A DNA stretch of 64,000 nt, from IMG/VR virus record IMGVR_UViG_3300032038_000011, positions 72,936 to 136,935 of that record. One strand, 5' to 3'. Of this stretch, positions 80-63,409 are shown piece after piece; within the stretch, counting starts at the first letter, position 1; each line of letters starts with the position of its first letter. Under the pieces are notes generated by a model that saw only the letters and a program-made list of their open reading frames with translations, was not told the origin of the DNA and ran no database searches. The position numbers and the translations under genes are program-made. Source of the stretch: a virus. Lineage: Duplodnaviria; Caudoviricetes.

Positions 80-107
80 CCGTATGTTTAACATACGGTT
101 TTATTTT
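80..107 (+). terminator. Intrinsic terminator-like hairpin
   Basis: CCGTATGTT-T-AACATACGG followed by TTTTATTTT. Confidence 0.5.
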
Positions 108-115
108 GAAATTAT

Positions 116-147
116 GTTAATTAGAGGATACGTAGTATCTAATTTAC
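116..147. repeat. 32-bp dyad site S1
   Basis: GTTAATTAGAGG-ATACGTAG-TATCTAATTTAC; one of seven aligned copies. Confidence 0.85.
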
Positions 148-171
148 ATTGAATTAAAATTATGGGATACA

Positions 172-306
172 TCAAAAGATGTATCCCTGCATCATTTCAT
201 CAAATTCTGAAAATGAAATGCCGTTTTCGTCGGGGTCAAGAATGTTCGCCTGATAGTCCCAATAAATACGCACCTGTTCCTCAGAAGTCAGATTTTCCCA
301 CTCCAT
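172..306 (-). CDS. Small acidic hypothetical protein, 44 aa (cassette 1)
   Basis: ATG at 306 (MEWENLTSEE...) after GAGGT RBS; own promoter at 341-369; terminator hairpin GGGATACATC/GATGTATCCC overlaps the stop. Confidence 0.7.
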   Translation of the reverse strand: MEWENLTSEEQVRIYWDYQANILDPDENGISFSEFDEMMQGYIF

Positions 307-340
307 ACGGGATACCTCGCTTTCGTTTGTTTGCAAGATT

Positions 341-369
341 ATTATAGCAAAAATAAAATGAAATGTCAA
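341..369 (-). promoter_or_regulatory. Sigma-A/70 consensus promoter
   Basis: TTGACA-17 bp-TATAAT on the minus strand. Confidence 0.85.
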
Positions 370-380
370 GTTAAATGATT

Positions 381-412
381 ATTAATTAGATTATACGTGC
401 GGTCTAATTAAC
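381..412. repeat. 32-bp dyad site S2
   Basis: ATTAATTAGATT-ATACGTGC-GGTCTAATTAAC. Confidence 0.85.
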
Positions 413-426
413 AGGAATTTAAAATA

Positions 427-457
427 AAATTGCGAAACTTTTTATGTTTCGCAATTT
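427..457 (-). terminator. Intrinsic terminator of cassette 2
   Basis: AAATTGCGAAAC / GTTTCGCAATTT stem with T-rich tail on the minus strand. Confidence 0.7.
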
Positions 458-467
458 GAAATTGAAA

Positions 468-608
468 TTAAGGAATTAATATTTCCTTAACATCCCATTT
501 CATTCCCGTGCAATGCGTGCGCCAATTTGCCGCATTTTGTGCCTCTTCGCGCGTGCGATAGTAGGAAGAACCTTGAAAACCACCACAATAGATTGCATAC
601 ACTGTCAT
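468..608 (-). CDS. Small hypothetical protein, 46 aa (cassette 2; not in the ORF track)
   Basis: Manual translation MTVYAIYCGGFQGSSYYRTREEAQNAANWRTHCTGMKWDVKEILIP*; GAAAGGGG RBS; own promoter and terminator. Confidence 0.7.
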   Translation of the reverse strand: MTVYAIYCGGFQGSSYYRTREEAQNAANWRTHCTGMKWDVKEILIP

Positions 609-643
609 TTTAGGAAAATCCCCTTTCGTTTGTTTCTGAAATT

Positions 644-672
644 ATTATATCATTTTTGAAATGAAATGTCAA
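644..672 (-). promoter_or_regulatory. Sigma-A/70 consensus promoter
   Basis: TTGACA-17 bp-TATAAT with TGn extension. Confidence 0.85.
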
Positions 673-683
673 GTTATTTTTAT

Positions 684-715
684 GTAAAATAGAACTTACG
701 TTTAATATAATTTAC
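684..715. repeat. 32-bp dyad site S3
   Basis: GTAAAATAGAAC-TTACGTTT-AATATAATTTAC. Confidence 0.75.
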
Positions 716-782
716 ATAAATTTAATTTGGGTTAGTTTTGGGATTGTCTAAATATTGTCATAATAAAAACTTTAAAAAGGGT

Positions 783-811
783 TTGATTTTGAAATTAGTT
801 TATGATATAAT
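783..811 (+). promoter_or_regulatory. Sigma-A promoter of cassette 3
   Basis: TTGATT-17 bp-TATAAT with TGn extension. Confidence 0.7.
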
Positions 812-842
812 ATATATAGAAAAGCAAGGGAGGTTTTGGGAT

Positions 843-1022
843 ATGCGCGCGAAAGACTATAAGAAAAGGAATAGTTTTTCATATAAAATTAAAATGTGGT
901 TTTATCGGCTGACTTTTCGGGATGTTATGTCTACCAGTAAAATTGTTATTATTTCTATAATAAATTTTATAATGGCGGTTTTAGGATTCTTAATCCTCTT
1001 TTTTGGCCCGTCATTTCTTTAA
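843..1022 (+). CDS. Small membrane protein, 59 aa (cassette 3, inverted orientation)
   Basis: GGGAGG RBS then ATG at 843 (MRAKDYKK...); basic N-terminus and hydrophobic C-terminal helix. Confidence 0.7.
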   Translation: MRAKDYKKRNSFSYKIKMWFYRLTFRDVMSTSKIVIISIINFIMAVLGFLILFFGPSFL

Positions 1023-1060
1023 GAAAATGAAATGAAATTAGGGTGTGAGGTTTCGGGAAT

Positions 1061-1092
1061 GTAAATTATATCATACGTATTTTATAATTAAC
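1061..1092. repeat. 32-bp dyad site S4
   Basis: GTAAATTATATC-ATACGTAT-TTTATAATTAAC; lies between two convergent gene ends. Confidence 0.8.
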
Positions 1093-1120
1093 AAAAATAA
1101 AATAAAATAAAAGGTTGGAA

Positions 1121-1420
1121 TTACTTCCAACCTTCCATATATCCTGCGTATCGAATCATAACAATTTCATCATCGTAAATGGTAGGCGTGTCACGTTCTT
1201 CCATTATCGCGGCGACAATATCACCGCAGTCGAAATCTTCGATTCCTTGCCATATCCATTCATTGCCATTGAAGTCTACGAGAACCATAAAGTTCTGTTC
1301 GTAGTTAATTAAGTCAACTACGAAAGCTTGAGGATACTGTTCTGCGCTGGCACAAGCCACAATTCCCATAAAGATAGCACAAGCAACAACGATACACCAA
1401 ACAATAACAAACTTCTTCAT
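1121..1420 (-). CDS. Secreted or membrane-anchored hypothetical protein, 99 aa (cassette 4)
   Basis: Likely start MKKFVIVW at 1420 after AAGGGAG; signal-peptide-like N-terminus; hairpin AAGGTTGGAA/TTCCAACCTT spans the stop. Confidence 0.8.
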   Translation of the reverse strand: MKKFVIVWCIVVACAIFMGIVACASAEQYPQAFVVDLINYEQNFMVLVDFNGNEWIWQGIEDFDCGDIVAAIMEERDTPTIYDDEIVMIRYAGYMEGWK

Positions 1421-1449
1421 ACTATATACTCCCTTCATTTGATGGTATA

Positions 1450-1478
1450 AGTATAACATATATATAGTATGATGTCAA
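1450..1478 (-). promoter_or_regulatory. Sigma-A promoter
   Basis: TTGACA-17 bp-TATACT with TGn extension. Confidence 0.8.
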
Positions 1479-1489
1479 GTTAAACTACT

Positions 1490-1521
1490 GTAAATTAGAT
1501 AATACGTTTACTCTAATTAAC
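1490..1521. repeat. 32-bp dyad site S5
   Basis: GTAAATTAGATA-ATACGTTT-ACTCTAATTAAC. Confidence 0.85.
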
Positions 1522-1538
1522 ATAGAGTTATCGCGGAT

Positions 1539-1778
1539 TTAACCTCCGCGATAATTTGGATGAACTCGTTCGTATGCACTAACTTTTCTAAAACTGTTAT
1601 ATTCTTGTTGCGTTATCTCTTTGCCGAATATAACCATTTTAGTGTGCTTAACACTTGGCATTTTTCGCGCTTTGTCGCAAGCCTCAAGCAAATTATTTGC
1701 TTTGAAAACAAACTTAATTTCAGTGCTTCGACCTGTTCCGCAATGTCCACGATGACAAACGACTTCAAAGTATTTCAT
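1539..1778 (-). CDS. Small basic hypothetical protein, 79 aa (cassette 5)
   Basis: AAGGGAG RBS, own promoter at 1810-1838, hairpin TTATCGCGGA/TCCGCGATAA around the stop. Confidence 0.8.
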   Translation of the reverse strand: MKYFEVVCHRGHCGTGRSTEIKFVFKANNLLEACDKARKMPSVKHTKMVIFGKEITQQEYNSFRKVSAYERVHPNYRGG

Positions 1779-1809
1779 GGTTGTTACTCCCTTCTTTTAT
1801 TCTGGTTAT

Positions 1810-1838
1810 ATTATAACATAGTTCTTGACCTTTGTCAA
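1810..1838 (-). promoter_or_regulatory. Sigma-A/70 consensus promoter
   Basis: TTGACA-17 bp-TATAAT with TGn extension. Confidence 0.85.
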
Positions 1839-1849
1839 GTTATGTTTAT

Positions 1850-1881
1850 GTTAATTAGGTTGGACGTTTAATGTAATTTAC
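1850..1881. repeat. 32-bp dyad site S6
   Basis: GTTAATTAGGTT-GGACGTTT-AATGTAATTTAC. Confidence 0.8.
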
Positions 1882-1890
1882 ATTAGCTTA

Positions 1891-2092
1891 ATTTCCAGTT
1901 CCAGCTTTCCAGCTCCATATAAATGTTAAGTTTATGTTAAAGTTTCCAGCTCCAATGTTAATTTTATGTTAATTAGAATGCGGCTTCCAGCTCTCAGTTC
2001 CAGCTCCCAGCTCGCGGCCGCGCCGGAGCCGAGGAACTTCCAGCTCCACGCAAATTTCCAGCTCCCCACCGGCACGCCGACCGGAGCCGAGG
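1891..2092. repeat. Cluster of short direct repeats (TTCCAGCT, ATGTTAA, GGAGCCGAGG)
   Basis: About eight (TT)CCAGCT copies in one orientation, several ATGTTAA copies, GGAGCCGAGG at 2025 and 2083. Confidence 0.75.
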
Positions 2093-2200
2093 CAGGCCAA
2101 GGGCGCCCGCGCGAACCGAGCAAATTTACGCATAATTCATATTCTCTTAACATAGCTTTAACAAACCTCGCTTCTGAGGGCATATTCCCCCATCCTCTAT

Positions 2201-2228
2201 ATTATAGCAGATAAATGTTAATTGTCAA
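2201..2228 (-). promoter_or_regulatory. Sigma-A promoter pointing into the repeat cluster
   Basis: TTGACA-16 bp-TATAAT. Confidence 0.6.
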
Positions 2229-2284
2229 GGTAGTTTATGTTAAAAGTATGTGAATTAGATTAAATTTAACAAAGTTAAGCTGAC

Positions 2285-2316
2285 GTAAATTAGACTGCCC
2301 GGATAGTCTAATTTAC
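2285..2316. repeat. 32-bp dyad site S7 (perfect 12-bp arms)
   Basis: GTAAATTAGACT-GCCCGGAT-AGTCTAATTTAC. Confidence 0.85.
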
Positions 2317-2352
2317 ACAGGCTTAATGTTAGTGGTGACTAACTACTATGTT

Positions 2353-2387
2353 AAAAAAAAGAAAAGAGGGCGTTAAGCCCTCTTTTC
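2353..2387 (-). terminator. Terminator of the GC-rich operon
   Basis: GAAAAGAGGGC / GCCCTCTTTTC stem, U8 tail on the minus strand. Confidence 0.8.
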
Positions 2388-2624
2388 GTGGTGGCGCTCG
2401 ATGTAGCGCAGGCTGTGCAGGCAATCTTTGACGGCCTCGCGCGCGGTCTCCGCTACCCACAAAAACGTGGTCTTGACTTCCCACTCGGTCAGGTCAGTAA
2501 CCTCGATGGTCCATCCCATCGCGGTCTTATTCATCGAAAGTTCAAAGTGTCCGCTCGCGCTGTCGTTGCCGTGGTCGAAAGTGTAATGGTTGGCGCTGAT
2601 CTTCTGGATGTAAAGGTTCTTCAT
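2373..2624 (-). CDS. Hypothetical protein, 83 aa (GC-rich operon)
   Basis: AAGGAGGAG RBS, GC3-rich codons. Confidence 0.8.
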   Translation of the reverse strand: MKNLYIQKISANHYTFDHGNDSASGHFELSMNKTAMGWTIEVTDLTEWEVKTTFLWVAETAREAVKDCLHSLRYIERHHEKRA

Positions 2625-2674
2625 GATTGTCTCCTCCTTAATTTTAGGTCGTGGGAGGGCTTGCGCCCTCCCGA

Positions 2675-2869
2675 TTATTCGCGGTAGTCGTCGCGGCCGC
2701 CGTTCTTTTTGACGGCCCAGTTCTTTGCGCCTCGGGCAGTTTTGTAGACGCCCTTGTGTTCCCAGTGGTACTGGGTGCCCTCGCCCACGTGGTACTTGCC
2801 ATCGCGGTCAGGCTCGGTGTCGTAGGTGTAATAGTGGTATTTGCTGCCGGTGTAGCCTGCCTTCATCAT
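2675..2869 (-). CDS. Hypothetical protein, 64 aa (GC-rich operon)
   Basis: GAGGAGG RBS; flanked by hairpins. Confidence 0.75.
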   Translation of the reverse strand: MMKAGYTGSKYHYYTYDTEPDRDGKYHVGEGTQYHWEHKGVYKTARGAKNWAVKKNGGRDDYRE

Positions 2870-2897
2870 TGTAACTTCCTCCTCTCAGGGACGGGCA

Positions 2898-3281
2898 TTA
2901 AGCCCGTCCCGTGCTCCTCAAGTATTCCTGCCAGACTCGCTCCACCTCGGCGAGGTAGTCATTGACTACCTTGCCGGTGAAGCGCTGAGCTGCGTAGTAC
3001 AACTCGCGCAGGTCGTAGTGGTGGAACGCTTCCAACACGTCCCTGCCCTCGTCGGACTGGTTCAGATCGTAGTCCCTCAGGCTGGGAGTCAAGTCCTCGG
3101 GATGGCCGTAGTAGACCATGACCGCGAGGCGCTTCTCGGGTTCGAACTCGACGTGGCCGAAGCCGCAGTTCTCAGCCTCGGTATCGAGGTCGAAGTTCAT
3201 GGAAAACTGGGCCATGCAGAACTGCTCGTCAAAGAGCAGGCCGTACTCGGTAACGGTGGTGTTGTAGTTGCAGATCATCAT
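2898..3281 (-). CDS. Acidic hypothetical protein, 127 aa (GC-rich operon)
   Basis: AAGGAGGT RBS before MMICNYNT at 3281. Confidence 0.8.
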   Translation of the reverse strand: MMICNYNTTVTEYGLLFDEQFCMAQFSMNFDLDTEAENCGFGHVEFEPEKRLAVMVYYGHPEDLTPSLRDYDLNQSDEGRDVLEAFHHYDLRELYYAAQRFTGKVVNDYLAEVERVWQEYLRSTGRA

Positions 3282-3336
3282 TGTAGTAACCTCCTTGTAT
3301 TTGGTCGTTATTGTAAAGCTGAGGGGCTTGCGCCCC

Positions 3337-3456
3337 TCAGTGGTTGCGGCCATGAATTACCTCATTCATGCCTTTGATTTCTACCTCGTTCGCCTTGAAC
3401 TGTTTTTCAAGGCTCCGCAGGTCCAGCACCATAGCGATTATAAACAAAGTCAACAT
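3337..3456 (-). CDS. Small hypothetical peptide, 39 aa (not in the ORF track)
   Basis: AAGGAGGT RBS; MLTLFIIAMVLDLRSLEKQFKANEVEIKGMNEVIHGRNH*. Confidence 0.6.
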   Translation of the reverse strand: MLTLFIIAMVLDLRSLEKQFKANEVEIKGMNEVIHGRNH

Positions 3457-3493
3457 GTTTTTACCTCCTTCCAAAGGGTGAGGGCTTGCGCCC

Positions 3494-4066
3494 TCACTCC
3501 TTCATATCGCGGTCGATCTCGCTGGGGCAGTAGGCCGTGATCCGACCGCCGAGGCCCTTGACCTCGTCGCGGATCTTGACCTCGTTGCCGTCGGCGTCGG
3601 TGATGATGGTTACGCCGTCGATCTGAACTCGGTTCAGGCCGCCGACCCACTTCGCGCCGATGGTCTTGCAAACCACCTTCTCGAAGGTGCGCGCCCTCGG
3701 GCCGGCGCAGGGGCTGGGGTCGAGCGGCAGGTCCGAGTAGGTCCGGAACTTCTGCTCGAGCTGGCGAACCGTGATCCGGTTGCCGAAGGTCTTGCGGAAC
3801 GCGGTCTCGCTGATCTTGCGAACCTTCAACACGTTGTCGCTGATCACAAGGAAGCCGGTCTCGAGGGCGCGGTCGTTGCCAACAACCTCGATCAGGGTCT
3901 GGCGGCTGACGCAAGCCAGAACCAACTTGCGGGTCGCGCCGTGAACGCCTGCGCCGTCGGCGGTCGTCATGGCGAACCAATAACGCTCGGCGTGGCGCGG
4001 GTCGTTCAGGTAGTTCAACGCGGTGAGCTTCGCGGCGGCGGCGATGGTGGGATCGTACTTCTTCAT
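3494..4066 (-). CDS. Putative PD-(D/E)xK nuclease-fold protein, 190 aa
   Basis: AAGGAGGT RBS before MKKYDPT at 4066; C-terminal half has FEKVV...QIDG...DEVKG spacing typical of the restriction-endonuclease fold (function uncertain). Confidence 0.55.
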   Translation of the reverse strand: MKKYDPTIAAAAKLTALNYLNDPRHAERYWFAMTTADGAGVHGATRKLVLACVSRQTLIEVVGNDRALETGFLVISDNVLKVRKISETAFRKTFGNRITVRQLEQKFRTYSDLPLDPSPCAGPRARTFEKVVCKTIGAKWVGGLNRVQIDGVTIITDADGNEVKIRDEVKGLGGRITAYCPSEIDRDMKE

Positions 4067-4367
4067 GGGGTTTACCTCCTTTTTTGTGGGTCGTTGTGTT
4101 TTGTGCTGGTTGGTCGTGCGGTCGGCGGTCGGGTTCAGTTGCTGCTCGCCTGTCGGGTTCATCACTGCTCGGCGTTCACGGCTCTCACGTGCGCTGGTCT
4201 GGGCAGCTTCCTACTCCCGTCGGGGTCCTTGCGCGTCGCGTCTGGCAGCCGCGACTGGCGGTGGGCTGTTCAATTTTCAAGGTTCGCCGCTTGCTCGACC
4301 TGCTGGCCGTCCAGCCCGGCGGGTTCCTCGGGCTGCGGGGTTCTCGCTCATCCCCCCAACAGCTATG

Positions 4368-4395
4368 ATTATACTCGCCCCAACGAAAAAAGCAA
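4368..4395 (-). promoter_or_regulatory. Promoter of the GC-rich operon
   Basis: TTGCTT-16 bp-TATAAT with an upstream A-tract (UP-like). Confidence 0.6.
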
Positions 4396-4551
4396 GCATT
4401 TTTTTTTATTCATCAATATTCATAGCAAAGGGGGGGGTTATACATAGGATTCTGAATAATTATGCAATTTTTCGGCACCCACCCTCCCCATTTTCCACAC
4501 CCCAGTTCAAAATAAAACACCCTCGGCTCCAAAGCATAAAATCCCAAATAC

Positions 4552-4617: not shown

Positions 4618-5961
4618 ATGCAATATATGAAAAAGAAATACTCACTCGACTACTCTATTGAGCGAGATACCGACCGATTACACGCCGTTGAAGAAATTTT
4701 AGATACTTTGGATACCAAACCTTCCAATTCTGAATTAGAGCAAATGGCTTCCTATATTCTATATGGTAAGGATGAAGAAGGTAAAAACGCCGTACAAAGG
4801 GGCGAAACCACCGACTCCAATAAACGCTACAATAGCTTTCAACGTGCCGCGGACAAAGTCCAATCGCTTGATGAAATTTTAGAAAACCCATTAAACGACC
4901 AACAAGCCCTTCAATCGCTTGAAACCCGCTATATTTATACAAAGAAAAAACCAGCTATACATCGTCCCAAATACGATAAAAAAACTGGTGAATTAATCGA
5001 TCCTGGCGATTCCGAAATTCCAGGTATGCAAGACCTTTGGGATTGTATTGACCGCCTAGATCGCATCGTAGCAGTAAACGAAGGTAAAATTCCACCCGAT
5101 GAAAATACCCAAATTTTTAAAGACTCATATCGTCTTTACCAATTAAAGCATTCCCTTATTGATATAAGACGCCACCAATATTATCTTAAAGATGCCTACA
5201 AGCCCACCCTCCATTTTCTCGCGCTAACCCCTCCCAAAGCTCAAACTTATAATTGGGACGAAGATTCCTATTACTGGATGCCCCTCGACAAATGGCAAGA
5301 ACGCGTTAATAATGCCCTTCTACATACAATAAGTAAAAATTTAGAAGACTATGAAACACGTGAAAATCCATACACAAAAGAAATTGAAGTAAAATGGGTA
5401 GTGCGTAAACACACATTTGATTGGGAAAACCCATCCCACATTAAAGCATTAATAAACAATTATTCAGCTATTTATATGGAGCTTAACGAAAAATTAGATA
5501 GTTGGGGGCGCACCCTTATTTATGACTTTGACCGCTATTTTGATATGTCTGGGTTTAGTGAAGCGCGCGAATACATACTAACAAGAAAAATAGACCATGC
5601 TTCTTACACCGAAATTCGAGAAGAACTTCAAGAAAAATTTGGTCTAAAATACAATGAAAACCACATTTGTACTATTCTCGCAAAAGAAATTCCAGAAAAG
5701 ATGGCGGCAACAGCTACTAAACATCGAATGCTTTTAACAACGCCAATAACAGAACGCAAACGCTGTTTTACTTGCAAGAAGTGGTTGCCGCGAAACAACT
5801 ATTTTTTCGCTACCAATAATAGCCGCAAAGATAAATTTGCTTCTAATTGTAAAGAATGCGAAAAACAAAAAAGAATAGCAAGAGGAGGTCAGTCCGCGTA
5901 TGACAGACGAAATAAAGACGCGAAGATGCTTGAAGTGCAGGCAGGAGAAACCAATTCATGA
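4618..5961 (+). CDS. Phage protein with HTH-like segment and C-terminal CxxC...CxxC zinc ribbon (packaging or regulatory)
   Basis: 447-aa ORF (start may be 4627); SYTEIREELQEKFG helix; CFTC...CKEC; first gene of the terminase operon. Confidence 0.6.
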   Translation: MQYMKKKYSLDYSIERDTDRLHAVEEILDTLDTKPSNSELEQMASYILYGKDEEGKNAVQRGETTDSNKRYNSFQRAADKVQSLDEILENPLNDQQALQSLETRYIYTKKKPAIHRPKYDKKTGELIDPGDSEIPGMQDLWDCIDRLDRIVAVNEGKIPPDENTQIFKDSYRLYQLKHSLIDIRRHQYYLKDAYKPTLHFLALTPPKAQTYNWDEDSYYWMPLDKWQERVNNALLHTISKNLEDYETRENPYTKEIEVKWVVRKHTFDWENPSHIKALINNYSAIYMELNEKLDSWGRTLIYDFDRYFDMSGFSEAREYILTRKIDHASYTEIREELQEKFGLKYNENHICTILAKEIPEKMAATATKHRMLLTTPITERKRCFTCKKWLPRNNYFFATNNSRKDKFASNCKECEKQKRIARGGQSAYDRRNKDAKMLEVQAGETNS

Positions 5962-18177: not shown

Positions 18178-19068
18178 GTGGTGAATCAGATGCTTGATCA
18201 GTATTTTGGCATTAAAGAACTTTCAGAAGTTGTTTTAAAAGCCCACGACCCTATGCAATTTGGTTCAAGATACCTTGAAGCGGGAGAGCCCGTATTATAT
18301 TTTGAAAAAGTAAATATGGCTGTACTAAATGAACGACAATCTACAATTATGGCACGAGGAGGTTGGTCCAATATGCCTCGTGTTATCTGGGAGGATCGTT
18401 CAGAAGTACAATTCTCCCTTACTGAAGGTGTTATGTCTTCAATTAGTATGGGAATTTTATTAAGTGCTTCTGTTTCAGAAGCTAAGCAAAACAAAGAATC
18501 TCTTTTAGTACCTAAAAGAGAAGGTCCATTTGAATTAGAAGATGGATGTATTTATATAACACATCAACCTGTGTTATATCCTGAGAAAAAAGTTTTTATT
18601 TATCAATACGAGCGAGGAGTCGCTCAGAAAAAAGTTTTTGGGCAATTAGATCCAGAAAATAATAAATATAATCCTTTTTTAGACGAAACTGAAATATGTA
18701 TTAAAGTGTTTGAAGATAAAGAAAGGAAAAAAGAAGCGGACGCCACAAAAGAATATATTGTGGATTATTATTATGAGTATAATGATGAAGCATTGCTTTA
18801 TACAATACAAAAAGAAAGATTTAATGGATTGTTCACTCTTGAGGGTAAGTTTTACTCCAAGGATGAAAACGATGGCTTAAATTATACAAATTTGATTTAT
18901 ATGCCAAAAGTAAGAGTCGTGAGTGATATAAACTTACGCTTGGGAGAAAGGGCTGATCCAACTACGTCCGTATTTAATATTATTGGATTACCAGAAAACG
19001 TAGGCGGTAATAGAAAGGGTATGATTTTGGAGATTACGCGTTTAAGCGAAGATATAGACGCTGAATGA
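18178..19068 (+). CDS. Minor tail-tube paralogue
   Basis: FGIKEL, RGGWSN and ADPTTS motifs collinear with the major tube protein; start may be 18190. Confidence 0.7.
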   Translation: MVNQMLDQYFGIKELSEVVLKAHDPMQFGSRYLEAGEPVLYFEKVNMAVLNERQSTIMARGGWSNMPRVIWEDRSEVQFSLTEGVMSSISMGILLSASVSEAKQNKESLLVPKREGPFELEDGCIYITHQPVLYPEKKVFIYQYERGVAQKKVFGQLDPENNKYNPFLDETEICIKVFEDKERKKEADATKEYIVDYYYEYNDEALLYTIQKERFNGLFTLEGKFYSKDENDGLNYTNLIYMPKVRVVSDINLRLGERADPTTSVFNIIGLPENVGGNRKGMILEITRLSEDIDAE

Positions 19069-19103
19069 GCCACTTCCTAAGTGTAGGGAAGTGGCTCTTT
19101 TTT
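19067..19103 (+). terminator. Intrinsic terminator just before the tape measure gene
   Basis: GAGCCACTTCC / GGAAGTGGCTC plus T6. Confidence 0.8.
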
Positions 19104-19130
19104 ATTTGGTGCAAAAGGAGAGTGAAAAGT

Positions 19131-22100
19131 ATGTCTAATGAAATAGGCAGTTTTGTAGTTAGTATAAAAGCTCAAATAGAAGGTTATCAAGAGCAAATTA
19201 ACGCTATAAAAGCAAAATTAGTTGAAATTGGCAAAGATACGGATATTGGAAAAGAAATAGCGAAATCTTTAAAATTAGCTGAGTCACAAGTAGAACGCCT
19301 TGGGAAAACCATGGATAAACGTATTTCTTCAGAATCTCAAATTACGGCATTAACGGATAATTTACAAAATATTAGTCGTTTAATAATGGATATTGGAGAT
19401 TCTTTTGGGAAAGTTACTTGGAATGATTTAAATGTTGATGGTTTAAGAGATAAAATTCAAAGTGCTAAGTCTGAAATTGATAATTTAACAAACTCAATGC
19501 AAGAAAATGTTTCTAAAGGTTTTGCAGAAGCCTTAGCTTCATCTGCAGAAATGAGAGATGTTTTTAAGTCTTTAAAAATTGACCCGGCTCAAATGGGCGT
19601 AGAAGAAGTTACTGAAAAATTAAGACTTAGTTTAATTCAAGCAACTTCAATTTTAGAAAATTATAAAGCTGAATTAGATAAAATTATTCCAAAAGCAGAA
19701 GAAGCTACTCAAAAAATGAACGCTATTGAGATAGATAAAACTAAAGCAGAGCAAGCAAAAGCTAGTATTAATGACATTTTTAAAAATTTGCAAGTTGTTT
19801 CTAAAGTAGACACTAATTCTGCAGTTGGTGAACTTTATACAGAAATTGTAGGAAAATGTGATGAGTTATATTATGATTTAGATCAAAAAGGAAAAGGAAT
19901 AGTAGATAAAATTAAAGAGCTTAATTTTAAAATGTTAAATGAAACAGATCCAACAAAATTTAAAGAATATTTAACTCAAATAGATGAAAGTTTTAAACAG
20001 TTAAATGGTAAAGGTTTAACTGCGAACGTTGATGGTTTTGGCACTCGCTTAGAAAGTATTTTTAAATCTATTATGTCAGTAGATAGTCATAAATTTGTTG
20101 AAGGTATCGAGCAAGTTAGAACTGCCTTAGAAGGATTATTTGCTGATAATAAAAATTTTAATTTATCTCCAGAAGACGCAAAAAGTTTTATTGAAAAAGT
20201 TTTAAATATTGAAGCAACAAAAGAATCAATAAAAGCTAAAAGAGAAGAGGTCTCAGCACTTATAAAAAGTTATTTAACTGGAGTTTCTCAAGATTATAAA
20301 GAAGCTTCTAAAGTGGCAACTGGGTTAAATAATTCAAAAAATACTGCTCAGAAAAAATATGATGAAGCGCAAGCAAAAAGTGAAGCAATTAAAACTGCTG
20401 AAACAAAATATTTAGCTGAAATAAAAGCATTAGAAAATAAAAATGCTGAATTAAAAGCTCAATTAGATAATGCAGTAAAAAGATTAGAAGCTTTAGAAAA
20501 AGAATCTGAGTCTCGTAAAAATGGAAAATCTCCAATGGGAGATTTTGGTAGAAAACAAAAGCAAACTGCCGCTCAGTCTTTAAACGATGCTGCAAATGCT
20601 GCTGGAAAATATAGTGCTCAATTAGAACAAGTAAAAGCGCGCGAACAAGCTATTGGTAATATACAATCTTTTGTTCAAAGATGGTTTAGTGTTTATGCTG
20701 CGGCACGTTTAGTATCTAATGCGTTTAAATCCATGAAAACAAATTTACAAGATTTAGACGATATTATGACTCAAATTTCTATAGTTACTGATAAAACACA
20801 AGGTGATTTATGGAAACAAATGCCACAGTATTCTGATATGGCAAAGCAATATGCTTCTTCTATTAAAGGCGTTTATGAAGTTTCTCAGCTATACTATCAG
20901 CAAGGTTTAGGTCAAAATGATGTTATGGCTCTTACTGAGCAAACATTAAAAATGGCTAAGATTTCTGGTTTAGAATATGCAACAGCAACTGACTATATGA
21001 CGAATGCTGTTCGTTCTTTCAAAATGGAAATGTCTGATGCGCAGACTGTTGTTGATGTATATTCTGCTATTGCCGCGAGTTCTGCAACTAATACTGCGGA
21101 ATTAGCTACCGCAATGAGTAAAACTGCTTCATCTGCGCAAGCTGTTGGTTCTAGTTTCGAGAATACTTCTGCAATGATGGCAGTTATGATTGAAGCTACT
21201 CGTGAATCTGCAGAAAATATTGGTTCTGCTATGAAATCTATCATTTCTCGTTATGGTGAAATGACAAAGAGTCCTTCTAAGTTAATTGACAGCGAAGGTG
21301 AAGCAATGAGCCTTAATAAGGTTGATACTGCTTTACAATCTGTTGGAATTTCTATTCACGATGCGCAAGGTCAATTTAGAGATTTTGATGATGTTATTAC
21401 TGAATTATCAGGTAGTTGGGATAAAATTGATAAAAATACTCAACGTTACATTGCTACTGTAATGGCTGGTAATAGACAACAGTCTCGTTTCTTAGCCTTG
21501 GTTTCTAATGGAGAACGTTTAGAAGAATTAACTGAAAAAGCTGCGAATGCAGAAGATACAGCTACTTTACAAGTATTAAAAACTATGGACTCTATTTCTG
21601 CAAAAGTACAACAATTGCAGACTAGTTTACAAGGTTTATATACAGAGAGTGGATTTGAAGATTTATATAAAGGTATATTAGATGGGTTAACTAGAATTAT
21701 AGATACTTTTAATAATATGCCTAAAATGTTTAATTCTATTCCAGTTACTGCTATAGCAACTTTTGCTCAATTATTTGTTAATATTGGTAGTTTAATTGGC
21801 TCTGCTGTTTCTGCTTGGAAAGCTAAGTGGTCTACTACTAGGACTGATTTAGAAAATGCTATTTCAAGTGGCACAGCGAATGGAGTTCAAGCAGCTCAGT
21901 TAAATGCTAATAGTTTAGTTAGAATGTTTGAGAGTGCTGCAAATAGAATTAAAAATGTATTAACTGGAGCAATTGCGCAAGGAACTTCTCCAACCTCTAA
22001 TGAATTAATTACAACTAATACAAAATATCAGCCAATTGAAGTTAATAAAAAATGGAGTGAAGAAAAGCAACAAGCTGCTACTGCTTATAATAATACTTTT

Positions 22101-47134: not shown

Positions 47135-47605
47135 TTACCTCATATTCATTAGCTTTTCGCGTTCTCTTGGCTTAAACTTTCTTTTTTTAATAGAAAAGGT
47201 TAAAAACCATTCAGTAGGATCTCCTTCCGGAGTTAACTCATATTGTACTTTTAATTTATTAAAAGATCTTTCTTCACATTTATAAAAATGGTCTTTCCCT
47301 GTTTTTTGACTTCTCCAAATTTCATAAGTTGTAAGTCCGTAATGATGGCAACCTTGTCGTAAAATTTCTAACATTTCTGGGCTTAATATTGCTACTCGTA
47401 AAATAATTTTCCTATCATTACCAGGATTTTTAAATTCTTCATAATATCCTGATAAAGTATCTATAAAGAAAGAATTTAATACATGATTTTCATTATCATA
47501 TAAATTTAACTGAATATTAGGAACTTCTTTTTCTCCAAAACCATATTTTGTTTTCTCTAAGTATATTTCACGAACATCTTCTTCGCTCATTTCTTTATAA
47601 CTCAT
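47135..47605 (-). CDS. Minimal tail-tube-like protein
   Basis: Motifs GEKEVPNI, FIDTL, RSQKTGKD and EGDP collinear with the major tail protein. Confidence 0.65.
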   Translation of the reverse strand: MSYKEMSEEDVREIYLEKTKYGFGEKEVPNIQLNLYDNENHVLNSFFIDTLSGYYEEFKNPGNDRKIILRVAILSPEMLEILRQGCHHYGLTTYEIWRSQKTGKDHFYKCEERSFNKLKVQYELTPEGDPTEWFLTFSIKKRKFKPREREKLMNMR

Positions 47606-48621
47606 TAACCTTCTCCACCCTTAGTTTTATTAAAACCAAATTCATTTGATTTGAAAAAATCTATATAATATTTTTCTAATTCATTTAACTGCTCTTTATC
47701 ACAATACATAATAACTTCAATAGTCCAATTCCAAAATCCTGTTTTCCAAATTTCATGATGAACAGCTTGGTCAGCAATTGTTTTAATTCCAATAGAACTT
47801 TTAAAATGGTCTGTAATTCGTTTCTTTATATTAGTACTTTTACCAATATAACATTTTCCACTATCTATATTAGTGATTTTATAAATGCCAGGTTTATCTT
47901 CTATACAAGCGCGTTTAAAAGTTTCATCAATATACGGTTTAACATATTCTGCCCAAACAAGTTTATTAATAATATCTGGGTGTTGAACTTTTTGAGAAAC
48001 AGTTGTGATTAGAAAATTTATATCATCTTTATATTCATCAGGAACTTGTATTGTATAATATAAACGCTCCTGTAAATTTTTTTCATATTGCCTTAAAGGT
48101 TCTAGTAAAGCTTCATATCTCTGTTGTTGATACAAAGTGTCTGCGAGAATATTATTTTGGCTTTTTCTCGCGGCTTCAATAACATCTGCAACTTCTTGTT
48201 TAAATTTATGTTCTTTTTCTAATTCTTCTCGTTCAAGTTTAATATACTGATTTTTTAAATTTTCTTCTTTTTCACGCCACAATCGTTCAAAATCTGTATC
48301 CATTTCGGACTGCCGTGTATTCTTTTGATGCTCAAAATATATATTTAAATCCTCTGTTTTTTTATTTAATTCTTCTCGGTATTTATTTTGAACGGTAAGG
48401 ATTTTATCTTGATAATCTTCAATTAAATCTTTCTGAGAACAAATATCTTTTTGTAAATCTTTTTTTCGATTTGATAATTGTTCAAATTGTCGTTTCGCAT
48501 CTTCGACTAAAAGATTTAAGTTATTTAATTCTTTATAATCGGTTTGAACTTTTTCACTAAGTTTAATGCTTAAAATAATAATAATTATAATTAATATTCC
48601 TATAATACCATATAATACCAT
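47605..48621 (-). CDS. Membrane-anchored coiled-coil protein with C-terminal GIY-YIG nuclease domain
   Basis: N-terminal poly-Ile TM helix, long coiled coil, GIYKITN...YIGKS...R...E...N motifs. Confidence 0.8.
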   Translation of the reverse strand: MVLYGIIGILIIIIIILSIKLSEKVQTDYKELNNLNLLVEDAKRQFEQLSNRKKDLQKDICSQKDLIEDYQDKILTVQNKYREELNKKTEDLNIYFEHQKNTRQSEMDTDFERLWREKEENLKNQYIKLEREELEKEHKFKQEVADVIEAARKSQNNILADTLYQQQRYEALLEPLRQYEKNLQERLYYTIQVPDEYKDDINFLITTVSQKVQHPDIINKLVWAEYVKPYIDETFKRACIEDKPGIYKITNIDSGKCYIGKSTNIKKRITDHFKSSIGIKTIADQAVHHEIWKTGFWNWTIEVIMYCDKEQLNELEKYYIDFFKSNEFGFNKTKGGEG

Positions 48622-57284: not shown

Positions 57285-59066
57285 TTAGAAATCATATTTA
57301 TGTGGATCATCTGGAGGATTATCTAAGTCATAATCATCTACAAATATTTGAGTGGTTGTGCGGCCTGCAAAAGTATTTAAATTAACTCTACCATAAACAG
57401 TAAGTTTTTGAAGTCTATTACTAAAAACTTCTTCCGTAAAATTTATATCTTTAAAACGAACGTAATCTATTCCATTAAAGCTAATCTTCATACTGTCTTT
57501 ATTCGCACCCATAGCCATTACATTAGCAAGAGAAATATTTTTAATAACAATTTTAATTTCATCAATATGATTGCCAAAAAATTCAGGATGTTCTCCCAAT
57601 TTTTCAAGCAAAGGAGCAATATTTTCTCTAGCATCTAGAATATAATCTACAGTGTAACATTTTGAAAAAGCATTATCATCTAATTTCTCATTACTATAAG
57701 AAAGTAATTTATCTGTATTAAAGCTATTAATACCAAAACCTGCGGCAGCATCATGCCCGGCTACATAATTAATTAAACTACTTTCTTCCAGAAATTGCTT
57801 GAAACTAGGAAGGCCAGCAAAATTTCCGCTGCTGCGAATACTACCATTTATTTCATTATTATCATTTCTACGACCAATCATAACTGGTTTGTTATACTTA
57901 TTAACAATAGCCATTGCTACTAATCCAGTTAATTCTGGCGGAATATTATCTTCTGGTTCTACTTCAACCAAAATAATATTATTGCTTGCTAAGTCATTTT
58001 TTTGAATTTTAAAATCAATTAAATCAATAGCTTTTTCTTTTAATTTATCTTGGCGAGCTTTTGCGTTCTTACCTACACGAGCAGTTTGTTCTGCGGCGGT
58101 TTCAGTATCTCCAGGCTTTGCTCCTCGTTTTGTGCTTGGTAAAATTTTATCTGGCTCAATAAAACAATAAAACATTGCTTCTTTTTCTTTCATAGATCCC
58201 ACTCGTGTAAGAGCGTTAATAAGAGGAGCGATATAAAAGGCAATATCAATTGGAGTTAATCCATACCAAGGATAAGTTGCTTTTTCTTTTAAAGAATATG
58301 ATTGAGCTTCAAGTAAGGTTTGGAAACCTTTATTTTTAATATTTTTTAAACCACGAAGCATTAGATAATTTGTTTCAGGAGTTGTCCTATCCATAACATC
58401 AGCAATTTCTCCAAGAGCAACTAAATCCATATATTCTTGAGCTTGCTTAATGCCTAAAATTTCATCTAGTACTTCACAAAACTTATAAACTACACCAGCT
58501 CCACATAATGATTTATTTGAATACATTGGAGATAATTGATTATTAACAACTATTGTATTTGAAGAAGTAGAAGTAATTGGATTACCATCTGTGTCATATT
58601 GCTGTTCGTGATGATCTAATACTAAACAGTCAATATTTAAATCCGCTAATCGTTCATGCTCTTCAATATCATAACTGGCCGAATCTGGACAAATTACTAA
58701 ATCAACATCATTTAGTGTTTCTAACCAATCAATTTTATCATCAAGCCCATGTTGCTTATGCTCGTGTAAAGTAAAAGTAAGATTAGCTTTTGGAAAGATA
58801 TGTTTAATATAAAGCCATAAAATACTTGAACTTGTAAAACCATCGCAGTCAGAATCTACTACGAACATAATCTTGCTATTTGTGCGAAGATGCCGCAAAA
58901 GTAATTCTGCCGCGAGATCAATATTTTCAAGACCATACGGATCTAATTCACATTCTGATGTTGGGTGTAAAAAAGATTCAATATCTTGAACACCACGGTC
59001 TATTAAAATTTCTGATAAAGCCTTTTCAGGATTTGTAGTATATTGTTTTCTTAATCTATAATTCAT
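57285..59066 (-). CDS. recJ: RecJ-like ssDNA exonuclease (DHH family)
   Basis: DSDCDG, DHH, LCGAGV, GSIR and GHDAAAG motifs. Confidence 0.9.
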   Translation of the reverse strand: MNYRLRKQYTTNPEKALSEILIDRGVQDIESFLHPTSECELDPYGLENIDLAAELLLRHLRTNSKIMFVVDSDCDGFTSSSILWLYIKHIFPKANLTFTLHEHKQHGLDDKIDWLETLNDVDLVICPDSASYDIEEHERLADLNIDCLVLDHHEQQYDTDGNPITSTSSNTIVVNNQLSPMYSNKSLCGAGVVYKFCEVLDEILGIKQAQEYMDLVALGEIADVMDRTTPETNYLMLRGLKNIKNKGFQTLLEAQSYSLKEKATYPWYGLTPIDIAFYIAPLINALTRVGSMKEKEAMFYCFIEPDKILPSTKRGAKPGDTETAAEQTARVGKNAKARQDKLKEKAIDLIDFKIQKNDLASNNIILVEVEPEDNIPPELTGLVAMAIVNKYNKPVMIGRRNDNNEINGSIRSSGNFAGLPSFKQFLEESSLINYVAGHDAAAGFGINSFNTDKLLSYSNEKLDDNAFSKCYTVDYILDARENIAPLLEKLGEHPEFFGNHIDEIKIVIKNISLANVMAMGANKDSMKISFNGIDYVRFKDINFTEEVFSNRLQKLTVYGRVNLNTFAGRTTTQIFVDDYDLDNPPDDPHKYDF

Positions 59067-62407: not shown

Positions 62408-63409
62408 TTATAGTAATTCTCGCATTTCATCAACAAAAAGTTCTACTAAATCAGATTGAGAAGGCACGGCCGCGCTTAATTTGAAATCTTCAGAACCAAA
62501 GATTCTTCGAATTACATCTTTCATAACATTTAGATGTTGTTCTTTTTCTTCATCTGTTTTTGCAGACTCTAAATAATTCACCCAAACTTCCTTAGCATCA
62601 TTAATAACTTCTTGGAAAGGACGAGCCTTGATTTGAGCAATTTCAGTATGGTCAGTTACTTCAGCTCCATCAAGTTCTACTGCTTTATCAATAGCTTCTC
62701 CAATTGCATCAACTAATTCTTTATAACCGAATTTAATCTTCGGGGCAAGATATTGATAACGACTTCCTGCAAATACTGTTGGAGTAGAACGAGTATATAA
62801 AAAACGTTCAGAAGTTCCATCTGTATTCATTTGAACTTGTAGATAACCAATAATATCAACAATACTATTAATAATTGTATAACATTGATTTGGTAAATCT
62901 GGAGCTACCGCAGTAATTTCATTGCCATCTTCATCTCTCATTTCAGTAGGTTTATCTTTACTATGAGCGATAAATAAAATGCCAAAACCAAGTAAAGTAA
63001 TCTCACGCCAACATTCTGAAAACTCGTTACGGAGCATGCCCCAACCTTGACCCCAAGGAATATCTCTTATACTATCAACACCTTCACGTTGACAAATATA
63101 TTTTTCACAAAGACCCCAAGCAATAGAAGCAGTATCTACTACAATACTATCGTACATTTCGCGTGCTTGTGGTTTACGAAGCTGGGAAAGAACTTTTTTA
63201 AAATCGCCCCAACGAAGAATAGGTACACTACGTATTCCAGCCAAAGCATTTGTACCTTGCTCAAAGTTAAGGAATAATGAACGAGGAAGTTGAGAACCAA
63301 ATGTCGATTTGCCAGTTTTTGGTTGTCCATAAATTAATAAAAACTTTCCTTTTAAATCTCTTGAAATTTTACTTGGCTCAAGAGAAAAAATATCAATATC
63401 GTTCGCCAT
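62408..63409 (-). CDS. Sak4-like AAA ATPase (ssDNA annealing recombinase, AAA_24)
   Basis: YGQPKTGKS, EQG, IVVDT and IAH motifs; adjacent to SSB. Confidence 0.8.
   Translation of the reverse strand: MANDIDIFSLEPSKISRDLKGKFLLIYGQPKTGKSTFGSQLPRSLFLNFEQGTNALAGIRSVPILRWGDFKKVLSQLRKPQAREMYDSIVVDTASIAWGLCEKYICQREGVDSIRDIPWGQGWGMLRNEFSECWREITLLGFGILFIAHSKDKPTEMRDEDGNEITAVAPDLPNQCYTIINSIVDIIGYLQVQMNTDGTSERFLYTRSTPTVFAGSRYQYLAPKIKFGYKELVDAIGEAIDKAVELDGAEVTDHTEIAQIKARPFQEVINDAKEVWVNYLESAKTDEEKEQHLNVMKDVIRRIFGSEDFKLSAAVPSQSDLVELFVDEMRELL

What the first reader, a model, noticed from the sequence alone, without database searches (positions are those of the whole stretch)
116..2316. Array of self-contained gene cassettes bounded by a 32-bp dyad site (integron- or shufflon-like system in a phage)
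Seen: seven 32-bp sites (116, 381, 684, 1061, 1490, 1850, 2285) share GTWAATTAG-like inverted arms, and every copy has CG exactly on the dyad axis (ACGT in six, CCGG in S7). Each of the first five intervals (233-397 bp) holds exactly one unrelated small gene with its own near-consensus promoter and RBS, and most also have a terminator. Established: site-specific recombinase targets have this form (Cre/Xer-type arms around a 6-8 bp spacer, or serine-recombinase sites with a central crossover dinucleotide), and repeated promoter modules drive shuffling in T4-like phages. Inference: these are recombination sites that let the phage insert, excise, reorder or invert accessory mini-genes. No recombinase lies in this window, and the array probably continues to the left.
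Basis: partly seen in the sequence, partly recalled or inferred. Interest (0 to 1): 0.9.

Follow-up and report, generated by a model that had tools for sequence, protein, structure and literature searches.

The report
Phased dyad sites bounding phage cassettes
A large rumen phage has about 33 small early genes, each bounded by the same 52-bp symmetric DNA site set at a fixed helical distance from its promoter; the site looks like a docking site for a regulatory protein, and relatives swap genes there by ordinary homologous recombination, not by an integron-like enzyme.

Summary
The seven sites are the right end of an 18.3-kb array of 33 sites, found nowhere else in the 137-kb phage record. The true unit is a 52-bp dyad: TTAA-N6-GTWAATTAGA-N4-ACGT-N4-TCTAATTWAC-N6-TTAA. 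Five relatives carry 9-42 copies each, always in one array. A sister lineage has a variant core (GTWAA-N8-CCGG-N8-TTWAC).

The integron/shufflon reading is not supported.
- Two complete and three partial genomes have no tyrosine, serine, HUH or rve-type recombinase.
- Crossovers scatter from -19 to +50 around the core, on both sides of the central CG.
- No cassette is seen in both orientations.

Cassette turnover is real: relatives differ by whole-cassette indels and translocations, and homology breaks are about 3-fold enriched in the dyad.

The consensus -35 starts exactly 11 nt from the core in 124 cases, 22/23 nt in 23 and 33 nt in one. These are steps of one helical turn. Variable inner positions do not covary.

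Best reading: an operator for an unidentified oligomeric protein that contacts RNA polymerase at early promoters. It sits in a terminator-dyad-promoter module that also acts as the homology patch for PeSL-like shuffling; the phage encodes a Sak4-like annealase. Other first-stage notes flag this same array in overlapping windows of this genome, not on other DNA.

The parts
106..157 (.). Dyad S1 (52 bp; core 116-147). It lies between two convergent gene ends and has no promoter on either side.
   Evidence: Orthologous sites in G003/G004 keep the arms and the CG while the inner positions diverge.
371..422 (.). Dyad S2 (core 381-412)
674..725 (.). Dyad S3 (core 684-715)
1051..1102 (.). Dyad S4 (core 1061-1092). 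Convergent junction, no promoter.
1480..1531 (.). Dyad S5 (core 1490-1521)
1840..1891 (.). Dyad S6 (core 1850-1881)
2275..2326 (.). Dyad S7 (core 2285-2316, centre CCGG). Last site of the array.
341..369 (-). Consensus promoter TTGACA-N17-TATAAT (12/12, with TG before the -10). The -35 starts 11 nt from the S2 core.
644..672 (-). Consensus promoter (12/12), 11 nt from the S3 core
1450..1478 (-). Promoter (11/12), 11 nt from the S5 core
1810..1838 (-). Consensus promoter (12/12), 11 nt from the S6 core
2201..2228 (-). Consensus promoter (12/12, 16-nt spacer), 56 nt from the S7 core, with a degenerate half-site between them
783..811 (+). Weaker promoter (10/12) for the plus-strand cassette gene. 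It is not at a phased distance from S3.
172..306 (-). Cassette gene, 44 aa, no family match sought. Terminator at 164-187.
468..608 (-). Cassette gene, 46 aa. Terminator at 427-457.
843..1022 (+). Cassette gene, 59 aa, hydrophobic C-terminus, opposite strand to its neighbours
1121..1420 (-). Cassette gene, 99 aa, hydrophobic signal/TM-like N-terminus, no Pfam or PHROG family. Terminator at 1107-1138.
1539..1778 (-). Cassette gene, 79 aa, no Pfam or PHROG family. Terminator-like hairpin at 1528-1554.
62408..63409 (-). Sak4-like ssDNA-annealing protein. Proposed engine of recombination between the repeated modules (inference).
   Evidence: phrog_124, E 4e-53
57285..59066 (-). RecJ-like ssDNA exonuclease, a possible partner of the annealase (inference)
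   Evidence: phrog_2484, E 1e-145

Best explanation
Each site is the core of a 52-bp symmetric protein-binding site. It sits inside a roughly 100-bp composite module: terminator of the upstream cassette, then the dyad, then a sigma-A-type early promoter. An oligomeric DNA-binding protein, not identified and probably phage-encoded, is proposed to occupy all of the roughly 33 dyads. From a fixed face of the helix (dyad centre about -62.5, -73.5 or -84.5) it would touch RNA polymerase at the adjacent near-consensus promoter and so switch the whole early-gene array together. I think shut-off of over-strong promoters, as phi29 p4 does at A2c, is more likely than activation. Copies at convergent gene ends are kept by selection, so the bound protein probably also has a boundary or cooperative role. 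Separately, the dyad is the longest stretch shared by all modules. It therefore serves as the preferred homology patch for the phage's own recombination system (Sak4-like annealase, RecJ-like exonuclease). This deletes, inserts and relocates whole self-sufficient cassettes, as PeSL elements do in T4-like phages. Shown: the anatomy, the phasing, purifying selection on the sites, cassette turnover, scattered crossovers, and the absence of known recombinases. Inferred: that a protein binds, which protein, the direction of control, and the role of Sak4.
For: Distribution: 33 sites lie in one 18.3-kb array and nowhere else in the record. Five relatives repeat this pattern with 9-42 sites each.

Site anatomy: conserved blocks are TTAA / GTWAATTAGA / ACGT / TCTAATTWAC / TTAA. 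Complementarity at variable positions 11-14 and 19-22 is no higher than shuffled expectation, so sequence is selected rather than hairpin pairing.

Phasing: the -35 starts 11 nt from the core in 124 cases, 22 nt in 18, 23 nt with a 16-nt spacer in 5, and 33 nt in 1. No case is at 10 or 12 nt. Random positions pass the promoter rule at 0.09%.

Selection: promoterless sites score as well as promoter-linked ones (PWM 56.9 against 56.1). The convergent S1 site keeps its arms and CG in G003/G004 while inner bases diverge.

Sister lineage: it has a different core but the same outer TTAA and the same 11/22-nt offsets, as expected if a protein and its site co-evolve.

Host genomes: the site is absent from 185,579 species genomes, apart from one 2.2-kb contig that is a fragment of this phage clade.

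Shuffling: whole-cassette indels and translocations separate relatives. Homology breaks are enriched in the dyad. Crossovers are scattered, as reported for PeSLs (PMC2839356). A Sak4-like annealase and a RecJ-like exonuclease are encoded.
Against: No binding protein is identified. The only conserved small HTH candidate (famA, 62 aa) is weak evidence and lies in a region missing from this record. About 40% of strong promoters inside the array, and all 24-47 strong promoters outside it, lack a site. About 20% of sites have no promoter, so the site is neither necessary nor sufficient for a promoter. All copies descend from one another, which inflates apparent conservation and could partly explain the fixed spacing. 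Near-consensus promoters need no activator, so the direction of control is a guess. About 50-60 bits of information is more than a simple operator needs.
Confidence: 0.55

Rival explanations
1. Roadblock or insulator (stoperator-like). A protein bound at every cassette boundary stops read-through from either side, so each cassette is transcriptionally isolated and the array can be silenced. The promoter phasing would be secondary.
For: Sites sit at every strand switch, including promoterless convergent junctions, and are conserved there. The sites are symmetric, so they would act in both directions. Multi-copy intergenic repressor sites that stop elongation are known in Cluster A mycobacteriophages (PMC9283540, PMC6550527).
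Against: Most cassettes already end in intrinsic terminators directly next to the dyad. The exact 11/22/33-nt quantisation relative to the -35 is not needed for a roadblock. No repressor or integrase was found, and nothing indicates a temperate lifestyle.
Confidence: 0.15
2. Host response-regulator boxes. Each half-dyad ((A/T)GTTAA-N5-TGTWAA) would be a WalR/PhoP-type direct-repeat site. A host OmpR-family regulator would gate early promoters, or be titrated by about 66 boxes per genome, while the lineage-specific centre binds something else.
For: The inner hexamer TGTWAA, the 5-nt spacer and the 11-bp repeat fit TGTWAH-N5-TGTWAH (PMC4168254). 195 of 370 half-sites are within 1 mismatch. The part conserved across lineages is exactly TTWACA-N5-TTAAC next to the -35. 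The phage genomes encode no Trans_reg_C protein, so any such binder would come from the host.
Against: Only 5 of 370 half-sites match exactly, and the outer hexamer conserves only TTAA. After allowing for the number of motifs and offsets I compared from memory, the resemblance could be chance. It leaves the strongly conserved TTAGA...ACGT...TCTAA unexplained. The host is unknown.
Confidence: 0.1
3. True site-specific recombination. An unrecognised recombinase cuts at the central CG and moves or inverts cassettes, as in an integron or shufflon.
For: Cassettes are bounded by the sites and differ among relatives. The CG is invariant on the dyad axis in all 185 sites. The information content is high, as in recombination sites. 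A plus-strand cassette is flanked by one divergent and one convergent site, as an inversion would leave.
Against: No tyrosine, serine, HUH or rve-type enzyme is present in two complete genomes. Crossovers lie on both sides of the centre or outside the core. 31 of 66 homology breaks lie more than 80 bp from any site. No orientation polymorphism is seen in six genomes plus L058. Every cassette carries its own promoter at a phased distance, unlike integron cassettes.
Confidence: 0.07
4. A structural DNA element without a dedicated protein: cruciform extrusion, or an intrinsically bent, UP-like AT-rich tract that boosts the promoters.
For: It is an AT-rich palindrome directly upstream of the -35. 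Displaced promoters carry AAAAAAGTA, which resembles an UP proximal subsite (the UP consensus is from my own knowledge).
Against: Inner positions do not covary. Invariant G and C positions (G1, G9, C16, G17) are not expected of an UP element. Sites persist without promoters.
Confidence: 0.03

Closest known systems
PeSL (promoter-early stem-loop) mobile regulatory cassettes of T4-type phages (Arbiol et al. 2010, PMC2839356; Comeau et al. 2014, PMC4122927)
   Same: Both are repeated composite modules of about 100 bp that combine a strong sigma70-type early promoter with a terminator. Both flank small ORFan genes in a plastic region. In both, relatives differ by cassette indels and replacements at these modules, and crossovers are scattered within the module. 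In both, homologous recombination by the phage's own machinery is proposed.
   Different: Here a 52-bp high-information dyad, which does not covary as a hairpin, sits between terminator and promoter at a helically phased distance. The modules form one contiguous array of 17-21 kb rather than several hyperplastic regions. The phages are roughly 180-kb siphovirus-like phages of rumen Firmicutes, not T4-like myoviruses. Mini-circles were not tested.
Stoperators of Cluster A mycobacteriophages (PMC9283540, PMC6550527)
   Same: Both involve tens of copies per genome of one protein-binding site placed in short intergenic gaps.
   Different: Stoperators are 13-14 bp, asymmetric, orientation-dependent, spread over the whole genome and bound by the immunity repressor of a temperate phage. 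Here the sites are 52 bp, symmetric, confined to one array and phased to promoters, and no repressor or integrase was found.
Upstream regulators that touch RNA polymerase from one helix face: class I CRP sites (-61.5/-71.5/-82.5) and phi29 p4 (cited in PMC2731898, ref. 17). Positions and mechanism are from my own knowledge.
   Same: Both have a dyad centre near -62 with alternative positions one and two helical turns further upstream. p4 represses a strong early promoter by holding the polymerase.
   Different: No homology was shown, the binding protein is unknown, and the site is more than twice as long as a CRP or p4 site.
Integrons (attC x attI with IntI) and shufflons (sfx with Rci)
   Same: Both are ordered arrays of single-gene cassettes separated by imperfect inverted repeats.
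   Different: Here there is no recombinase, no fixed crossover point and no hairpin covariation. Every cassette has its own promoter, and no inversion polymorphism is seen.
Early-gene block of Enterococcus phage VRE9_3 and relatives (PP680569.1)
   Same: The position is syntenic: a minus-strand block of small genes just upstream of the phage sigma factor and the portal, sharing phrog_20187. There are many consensus promoters.
   Different: That block has no dyad. There the -35 hexamer is embedded in terminator hairpins, which is PeSL-like. The dyad is therefore an addition specific to the rumen clade.

Membership tests
Integron | IntI-type tyrosine recombinase gene next to the array | tested here: not met
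   PF00589 has no match in G000-G004, two of which are complete. The control rang in 14 of 14 genomes.
Integron | attC sites recognised as folded hairpins (structure conserved, sequence variable) | tested here: not met
   Complementarity at variable positions does not exceed shuffled expectation. Sequence blocks are what is conserved.
Integron | Promoterless cassettes read from a common Pc promoter | tested here: not met
   118 of 185 sites have their own near-consensus promoter by the strict rule, rising to 143 of 185 when the 22/23/33-nt offsets are also allowed.
Integron / shufflon | Crossover at one fixed position in the site | tested here: not met
   Informative positions place crossovers from -19 to +50, on both sides of the CG. 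HSP ends spread from -34 to +36 with no peak at 0.
Shufflon | Rci-type recombinase, and segments found in both orientations | tested here: not met
   No PF00589 match. No inverted cassette pairs among 6 genomes or in L058.
Serine-recombinase or invertase system | Resolvase/invertase catalytic domain | tested here: not met
   PF00239 has no match in G000-G004.
IS200/IS605-type hairpin-dependent element | HUH Y1 transposase | tested here: not met
   PF01797 has no match. PF00665 also has no match.
PeSL-type mobile regulatory cassette | Repeated composite of a strong sigma70-type early promoter plus a terminator stem-loop in intergenic gaps | tested here: met
   Promoters of 11-12/12 and terminators flank the dyads.
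PeSL-type mobile regulatory cassette | Indels and replacements between close relatives map to the modules, with variable crossover points | tested here: met
PeSL-type mobile regulatory cassette | Excised mini-circles formed by recombination between flanking modules | not testable with these tools
PeSL-type mobile regulatory cassette | Occurs in T4-like myoviruses | tested here: not met
   The nearest cultured phages are large Firmicutes siphoviruses at 31% portal identity or less. The genome has a 5995-aa tape measure protein.
Stoperator system | Short asymmetric sites, orientation tied to transcription, spread genome-wide, bound by an immunity repressor | tested here: not met
   The sites are symmetric, 52 bp and confined to one array. 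No repressor or integrase was found.
WalR/PhoP (OmpR-family) binding site | Two hexamers TGTWAH separated by 5 nt | tested here: inconclusive
   195 of 370 half-sites are within 1 mismatch, but only 5 are exact, and the outer hexamer keeps only TTAA. The consensus is from PMC4168254.
Class I-type upstream operator | Site positions differ by whole helical turns relative to the promoter | tested here: met
   Offsets are 11 (124 cases), 22/23 (23 cases) and 33 (1 case), with none at 10 or 12. The sister lineage shows the same offsets.
Class I-type upstream operator | A protein binds the site and contacts RNA polymerase | not testable with these tools
   No candidate was confirmed. The famA HTH is only a lead.

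The most novel reading that the evidence does not exclude
The dyad is the target of a dedicated protein of no known recombinase family. That protein would both regulate the early promoters and actively stimulate exchange between dyads. This would be a phage-borne cassette-exchange system that is mechanistically distinct from integrons, with lineage-specific cores (ACGT type against GGCCGGCC type) setting which phages can trade cassettes.
Probability: 0.08. Interest if true: 0.9.

Novelty: new variant of a known kind. Interest (0 to 1): 0.6.

Why it matters
If the reading holds, a widespread clade of rumen phages organises its whole early or accessory gene set as plug-in units. More than 360 distinct homologues of one array protein are present in metagenomes. 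Each unit carries a terminator, a shared operator and a promoter. That would extend the PeSL principle of regulatory repeats acting as recombination linkers from T4-like phages of Gram-negative hosts to large phages of Firmicutes. It would also add a new component: a long, helically phased operator with lineage-specific cores. This gives a concrete handle for finding the unknown regulator, for asking how about 30 promoters are switched together, and for testing whether operator type limits gene flow between phage lineages. The array is also a rich source of small host-takeover ORFans.

Tried and rejected
- Hairpin or cruciform selection: rejected, because variable positions do not covary.
- Known RNA families at the sites: none. 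Only a tRNA in one cassette and sub-threshold noise were found.
- Close matches among deposited phages by DNA: none.
- Site in bacterial genomes as a host regulon: none, apart from a mis-binned phage fragment.
- HU/TF1-type protein (PF00216): only sub-threshold hits.
- AbrB-type protein: absent from G000-G004. It is present only as a cassette gene in relative L058, so it is not the universal binder.
- OmpR-type wHTH encoded by the phage: absent.
- Cassette-12 protein as the binder: it is universal, very conserved and lies between divergent displaced promoters. The model has pLDDT 68.6 and no significant PDB match (best E 0.5; PC4 and HU appear only as noise), so the result is inconclusive. It is not similar to the cassette 7 or 14 proteins.
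- The 5995-aa ORF as an injected RNA polymerase that might read hairpin promoters: rejected, because it is a tape measure protein.
- Literature search for the arm sequences: no relevant paper.
Full report
**Where the window lies.** The window is bases 72,936-136,935 of a 136,935-bp linear virus record estimated to be about 80% complete. Gene content points to a large siphovirus-like phage of Firmicutes:
- a portal protein, virion proteins and a 5995-aa tape measure protein;
- a phage sigma-like factor;
- a PolC/DnaE-type polymerase, a DnaB-like helicase, a primase and a ribonucleotide reductase;
- a RecJ-like exonuclease and a Sak4-like annealase.

The nearest cultured phages are Enterococcus, Lactococcus and Bacillus phages at 31% portal identity or less. 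Related contigs come from cattle and sheep rumen metagenomes.

**Checking the observation.**
The pattern gives 7 matches in the window against 0.42 expected by chance.
- In the whole record there are 33 sites, all between 56,964 and 75,251, and none elsewhere. The seven are therefore the right end of an 18.3-kb array.
- All 33 have CG on the axis.
- A column count over the flanks shows that the conserved unit is 52 bp: TTAA-N6-GTWAATTAGA-N4-ACGT-N4-TCTAATTWAC-N6-TTAA.
The scan calls terminators for four of the five.
- The sixth interval holds a TTCCAGCT repeat tract, and its ORF is doubtful.

**Hairpin or protein site.** At the variable inner positions (11-14 against 19-22) and in the N6 linkers, complementarity between the two halves is no higher than in shuffled columns. 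Selection therefore acts on sequence blocks arranged symmetrically, not on base pairing. This is what a symmetric protein oligomer would impose. It argues against an attC-like folded site, a cruciform or an RNA hairpin. No Rfam family matches the sites.

**Relation to promoters.**
- The outer TTAA abuts a near-consensus promoter (TTAAC-TTGACA-N17-TGnTATAAT).
- Across six genomes (185 sites), the -35 hexamer starts exactly 11 nt from the core end in 124 cases. It starts at 22 nt in 18 cases, at 23 nt with a 16-nt spacer in 5 (which keeps the -10 in register), and at 33 nt in one. No case is at 10 or 12 nt.
- A random genome position passes the same promoter rule 0.09% of the time.
- The dyad centre therefore sits near -62.5, -73.5 or -84.5, in steps of one helical turn.
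- The displaced promoters carry AAAAAAGTA in the extra turn.
- The promoter may lie on either side of the symmetric site. One site (G000:72732) drives divergent promoters on both sides.
- This quantisation is the hallmark of a bound factor that must face RNA polymerase (class I CRP sites and phi29 p4; my own knowledge, with p4 cited in PMC2731898).

**The site is not simply a promoter part.**
- About 40% of strong promoters inside the array, and all 24-47 strong promoters outside it, have no site.
- About 20% of sites have no promoter, yet they score as well as the others (PWM 56.9 against 56.1).
- The clearest promoterless sites lie at convergent gene ends: S1, S4, G000:59028 and G000:66344.
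- The S1 site is conserved in the distant relatives G003 and G004. Arms and CG are intact while inner bases are fully diverged, so it is under selection there too.
- A purely promoter-centred model does not explain this. A boundary or roadblock role, or cooperative binding along the array, would.

**Relatives.** An exact-pattern scan of IMG/VR found five related records:

| Record | Size | Status | Sites |
|---|---|---|---|
| G001 | 41 kb | partial | 42 |
| G002 | 108 kb | partial | 30 |
| G003 | 184 kb | direct terminal repeats, complete | 33 |
| G004 | 181 kb | complete | 38 |
| G005 | 18 kb | partial | 9 |

In every record all sites lie in one array. A highly conserved 100-aa array protein has 363 homologues at 75-99% identity. 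Through it I reached a sister lineage whose arrays lack the ACGT-type core. That lineage instead has 17 copies per 20 kb of GTWAA-N8-CCGG-N8-TTWAC, with the same outer TTAA and the same 11/22-nt offsets. The part shared by all lineages is TTWACA-N5-TTAAC-TTGACA. Lineage-specific cores with a constant architecture fit a protein co-evolving with its site. The consensus site is absent from 185,579 bacterial and archaeal species genomes, apart from a 2.2-kb contig with six dyads that is a mis-binned fragment of this phage clade. It is therefore not a recognisable host regulon.

**Testing the recombination idea.**
- I clustered the 179 inter-site segments into 76 families. Arrays are broadly collinear but differ by whole-cassette presence or absence and by relocation. 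Families 12, 18, 31, 34, 37 and 40 sit in different places in different genomes. One family is duplicated in tandem. Ten cassettes in G001 replace one in G000. A closer relative, L058, shows further reordering.
- No cassette occurs in both orientations.
- Ends of long alignments between G000 and its close relatives are enriched at the sites: 18 of 66 inside the 52-bp dyad (6.1 expected; maximum 15 in 2000 randomisations) and 35 of 66 within 80 bp (19 expected). However, 31 of 66 lie elsewhere.
- For ten indel events I compared the single junction site with its two parental sites, using positions that distinguish the parents. Crossovers fall left of the core, at its left edge, inside it near positions 11-14, in the right arm (between 21 and 35), or beyond it. 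One event is not at a site at all. At least five of the nine site-associated events cannot have crossed at the central CG.
- HMM searches of all six frames found no tyrosine recombinase, serine recombinase, HUH Y1 transposase or rve integrase in any of the five genomes, two of which are complete. Controls behaved as expected.
- This pattern matches PeSL-mediated shuffling in T4-type phages, where crossovers were mapped to several places within a roughly 100-bp promoter-terminator repeat and homologous recombination was proposed (PMC2839356; PMC4122927).
- The phage's Sak4-like annealase and RecJ-like exonuclease are plausible agents. That link is inference.

**Who binds the site.** This is unresolved.
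- Array genes are mostly ORFans. The exceptions are PcfJ-like, PD-(D/E)XK and NT5C-like proteins, plus a weak T5orf172 match.
- A 62-aa HTH protein (famA) is present in G002, G003 and G004, in a region missing from this record. A second small HTH (famB) is not universal.
- No HU-type, AbrB-type or OmpR-type DNA-binding domain is conserved in the clade.
- The conserved 100-aa protein gave a medium-confidence model with no significant structural match.
- Each half-dyad resembles the WalR/PhoP direct-repeat consensus TGTWAH-N5-TGTWAH (PMC4168254). Only 5 of 370 half-sites match exactly, and the outer hexamer conserves only TTAA. I keep this as a weak lead.

**Comparison with cultured relatives.** Enterococcus phage VRE9_3 has a syntenic block of small minus-strand genes just upstream of its sigma factor and portal, with many consensus promoters. 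It has no dyad; there the -35 hexamer often sits inside terminator hairpins, which is PeSL-like. The dyad is thus an addition of the rumen clade to an older single-gene-cassette architecture.

**Verdict.**
- The proposed mechanism (integron- or shufflon-like site-specific recombination at the CG) is not supported.
- The best-supported reading is a helically phased operator inside a terminator-operator-promoter module that doubles as a homology patch for recombination. This is a new variant of the PeSL kind.
- The binder, the sign of regulation and the role of promoterless copies remain open.
- The same array was flagged by other first-stage notes in overlapping windows of this genome. I found no paper describing it.

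Noticed in passing
window 1899-2056; also G000:56721-56785 (L045:2721-2785) and G000:68912-69033: The 8-mer TTCCAGCT occurs in strand-specific clusters: 7 copies between S6 and S7, 4 copies just left of the first dyad, and 3 inside one cassette. G001, G002, G004 and G005 show clusters just outside or at both ends of their arrays. Minus-strand transcripts would carry AGCUGGAA repeats, so this may be a second regulatory motif bracketing the array.
   Followed up: partly
window 1980-4500: A GC-rich island (52-59% GC in a 33% GC genome) lies immediately right of the array. One of its genes (window 2675-2869, minus strand) is visibly similar in sequence (by eye, not tested) to an AT-rich cassette gene (G000:69756-69938), which suggests import from a GC-rich relative.
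   Followed up: no
window 19065-37052: A single 5995-aa ORF with a PhageMin_Tail domain: an exceptionally long tape measure protein, which implies a very long tail.
   Followed up: partly
window 4618-5961: A phage sigma-like factor (phrog_5767, no Pfam match) is the first gene after the array and heads the structural block. VRE9_3 has a phrog_5767 sigma factor at the head of the same block, after one 620-aa ORF.
   Followed up: partly
L045:11188-11768 (G000:65188-65768): One cassette, present only in G000, carries a tRNA gene (63 bits) together with a PD-(D/E)XK endonuclease (PDDEXK_5, E 4e-29).
   Followed up: no
L045:12020-12322 (G000:66020-66322): A 100-aa protein with a Lys/Ala-rich C-terminal helix is present in all arrays and lies on the opposite strand between promoters displaced by one helical turn. 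It has 363 homologues at 75-99% identity in metagenomes, no family, and no significant structural match.
   Followed up: partly
L045:2896-2943 (G000:56896-56943): Two 24-nt direct repeats (TAsTATGGTAsCACTTTAC...) lie immediately left of the first dyad, between it and a leftward promoter. Similar repeats occupy the same place in G001-G004.
   Followed up: no
L049 (JAZLEM010000151.1, 2202 bp): A contig binned into an Acetobacter MAG carries six dyads in 2.2 kb with otherwise unrelated cassettes. It is almost certainly a mis-binned fragment of this phage clade.
   Followed up: partly
L058:1651-1962: A close relative carries an AbrB/SpoVT-type (MazE_antitoxin) DNA-binding protein as a cassette gene that is absent from G000-G004.
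   Followed up: partly
L051:32000-38200 (Enterococcus phage VRE9_3): In the syntenic early block of this cultured relative, many consensus -35 hexamers sit inside terminator hairpins. This is a PeSL-like arrangement that, as far as my searches went, has not been described for these phages.
   Followed up: no
window 47605-48621: A 338-aa ORF with a C-terminal GIY-YIG homing-endonuclease domain lies in the replication arm. Further GIY-YIG/HTH endonucleases are present in G002 and G003.
   Followed up: no
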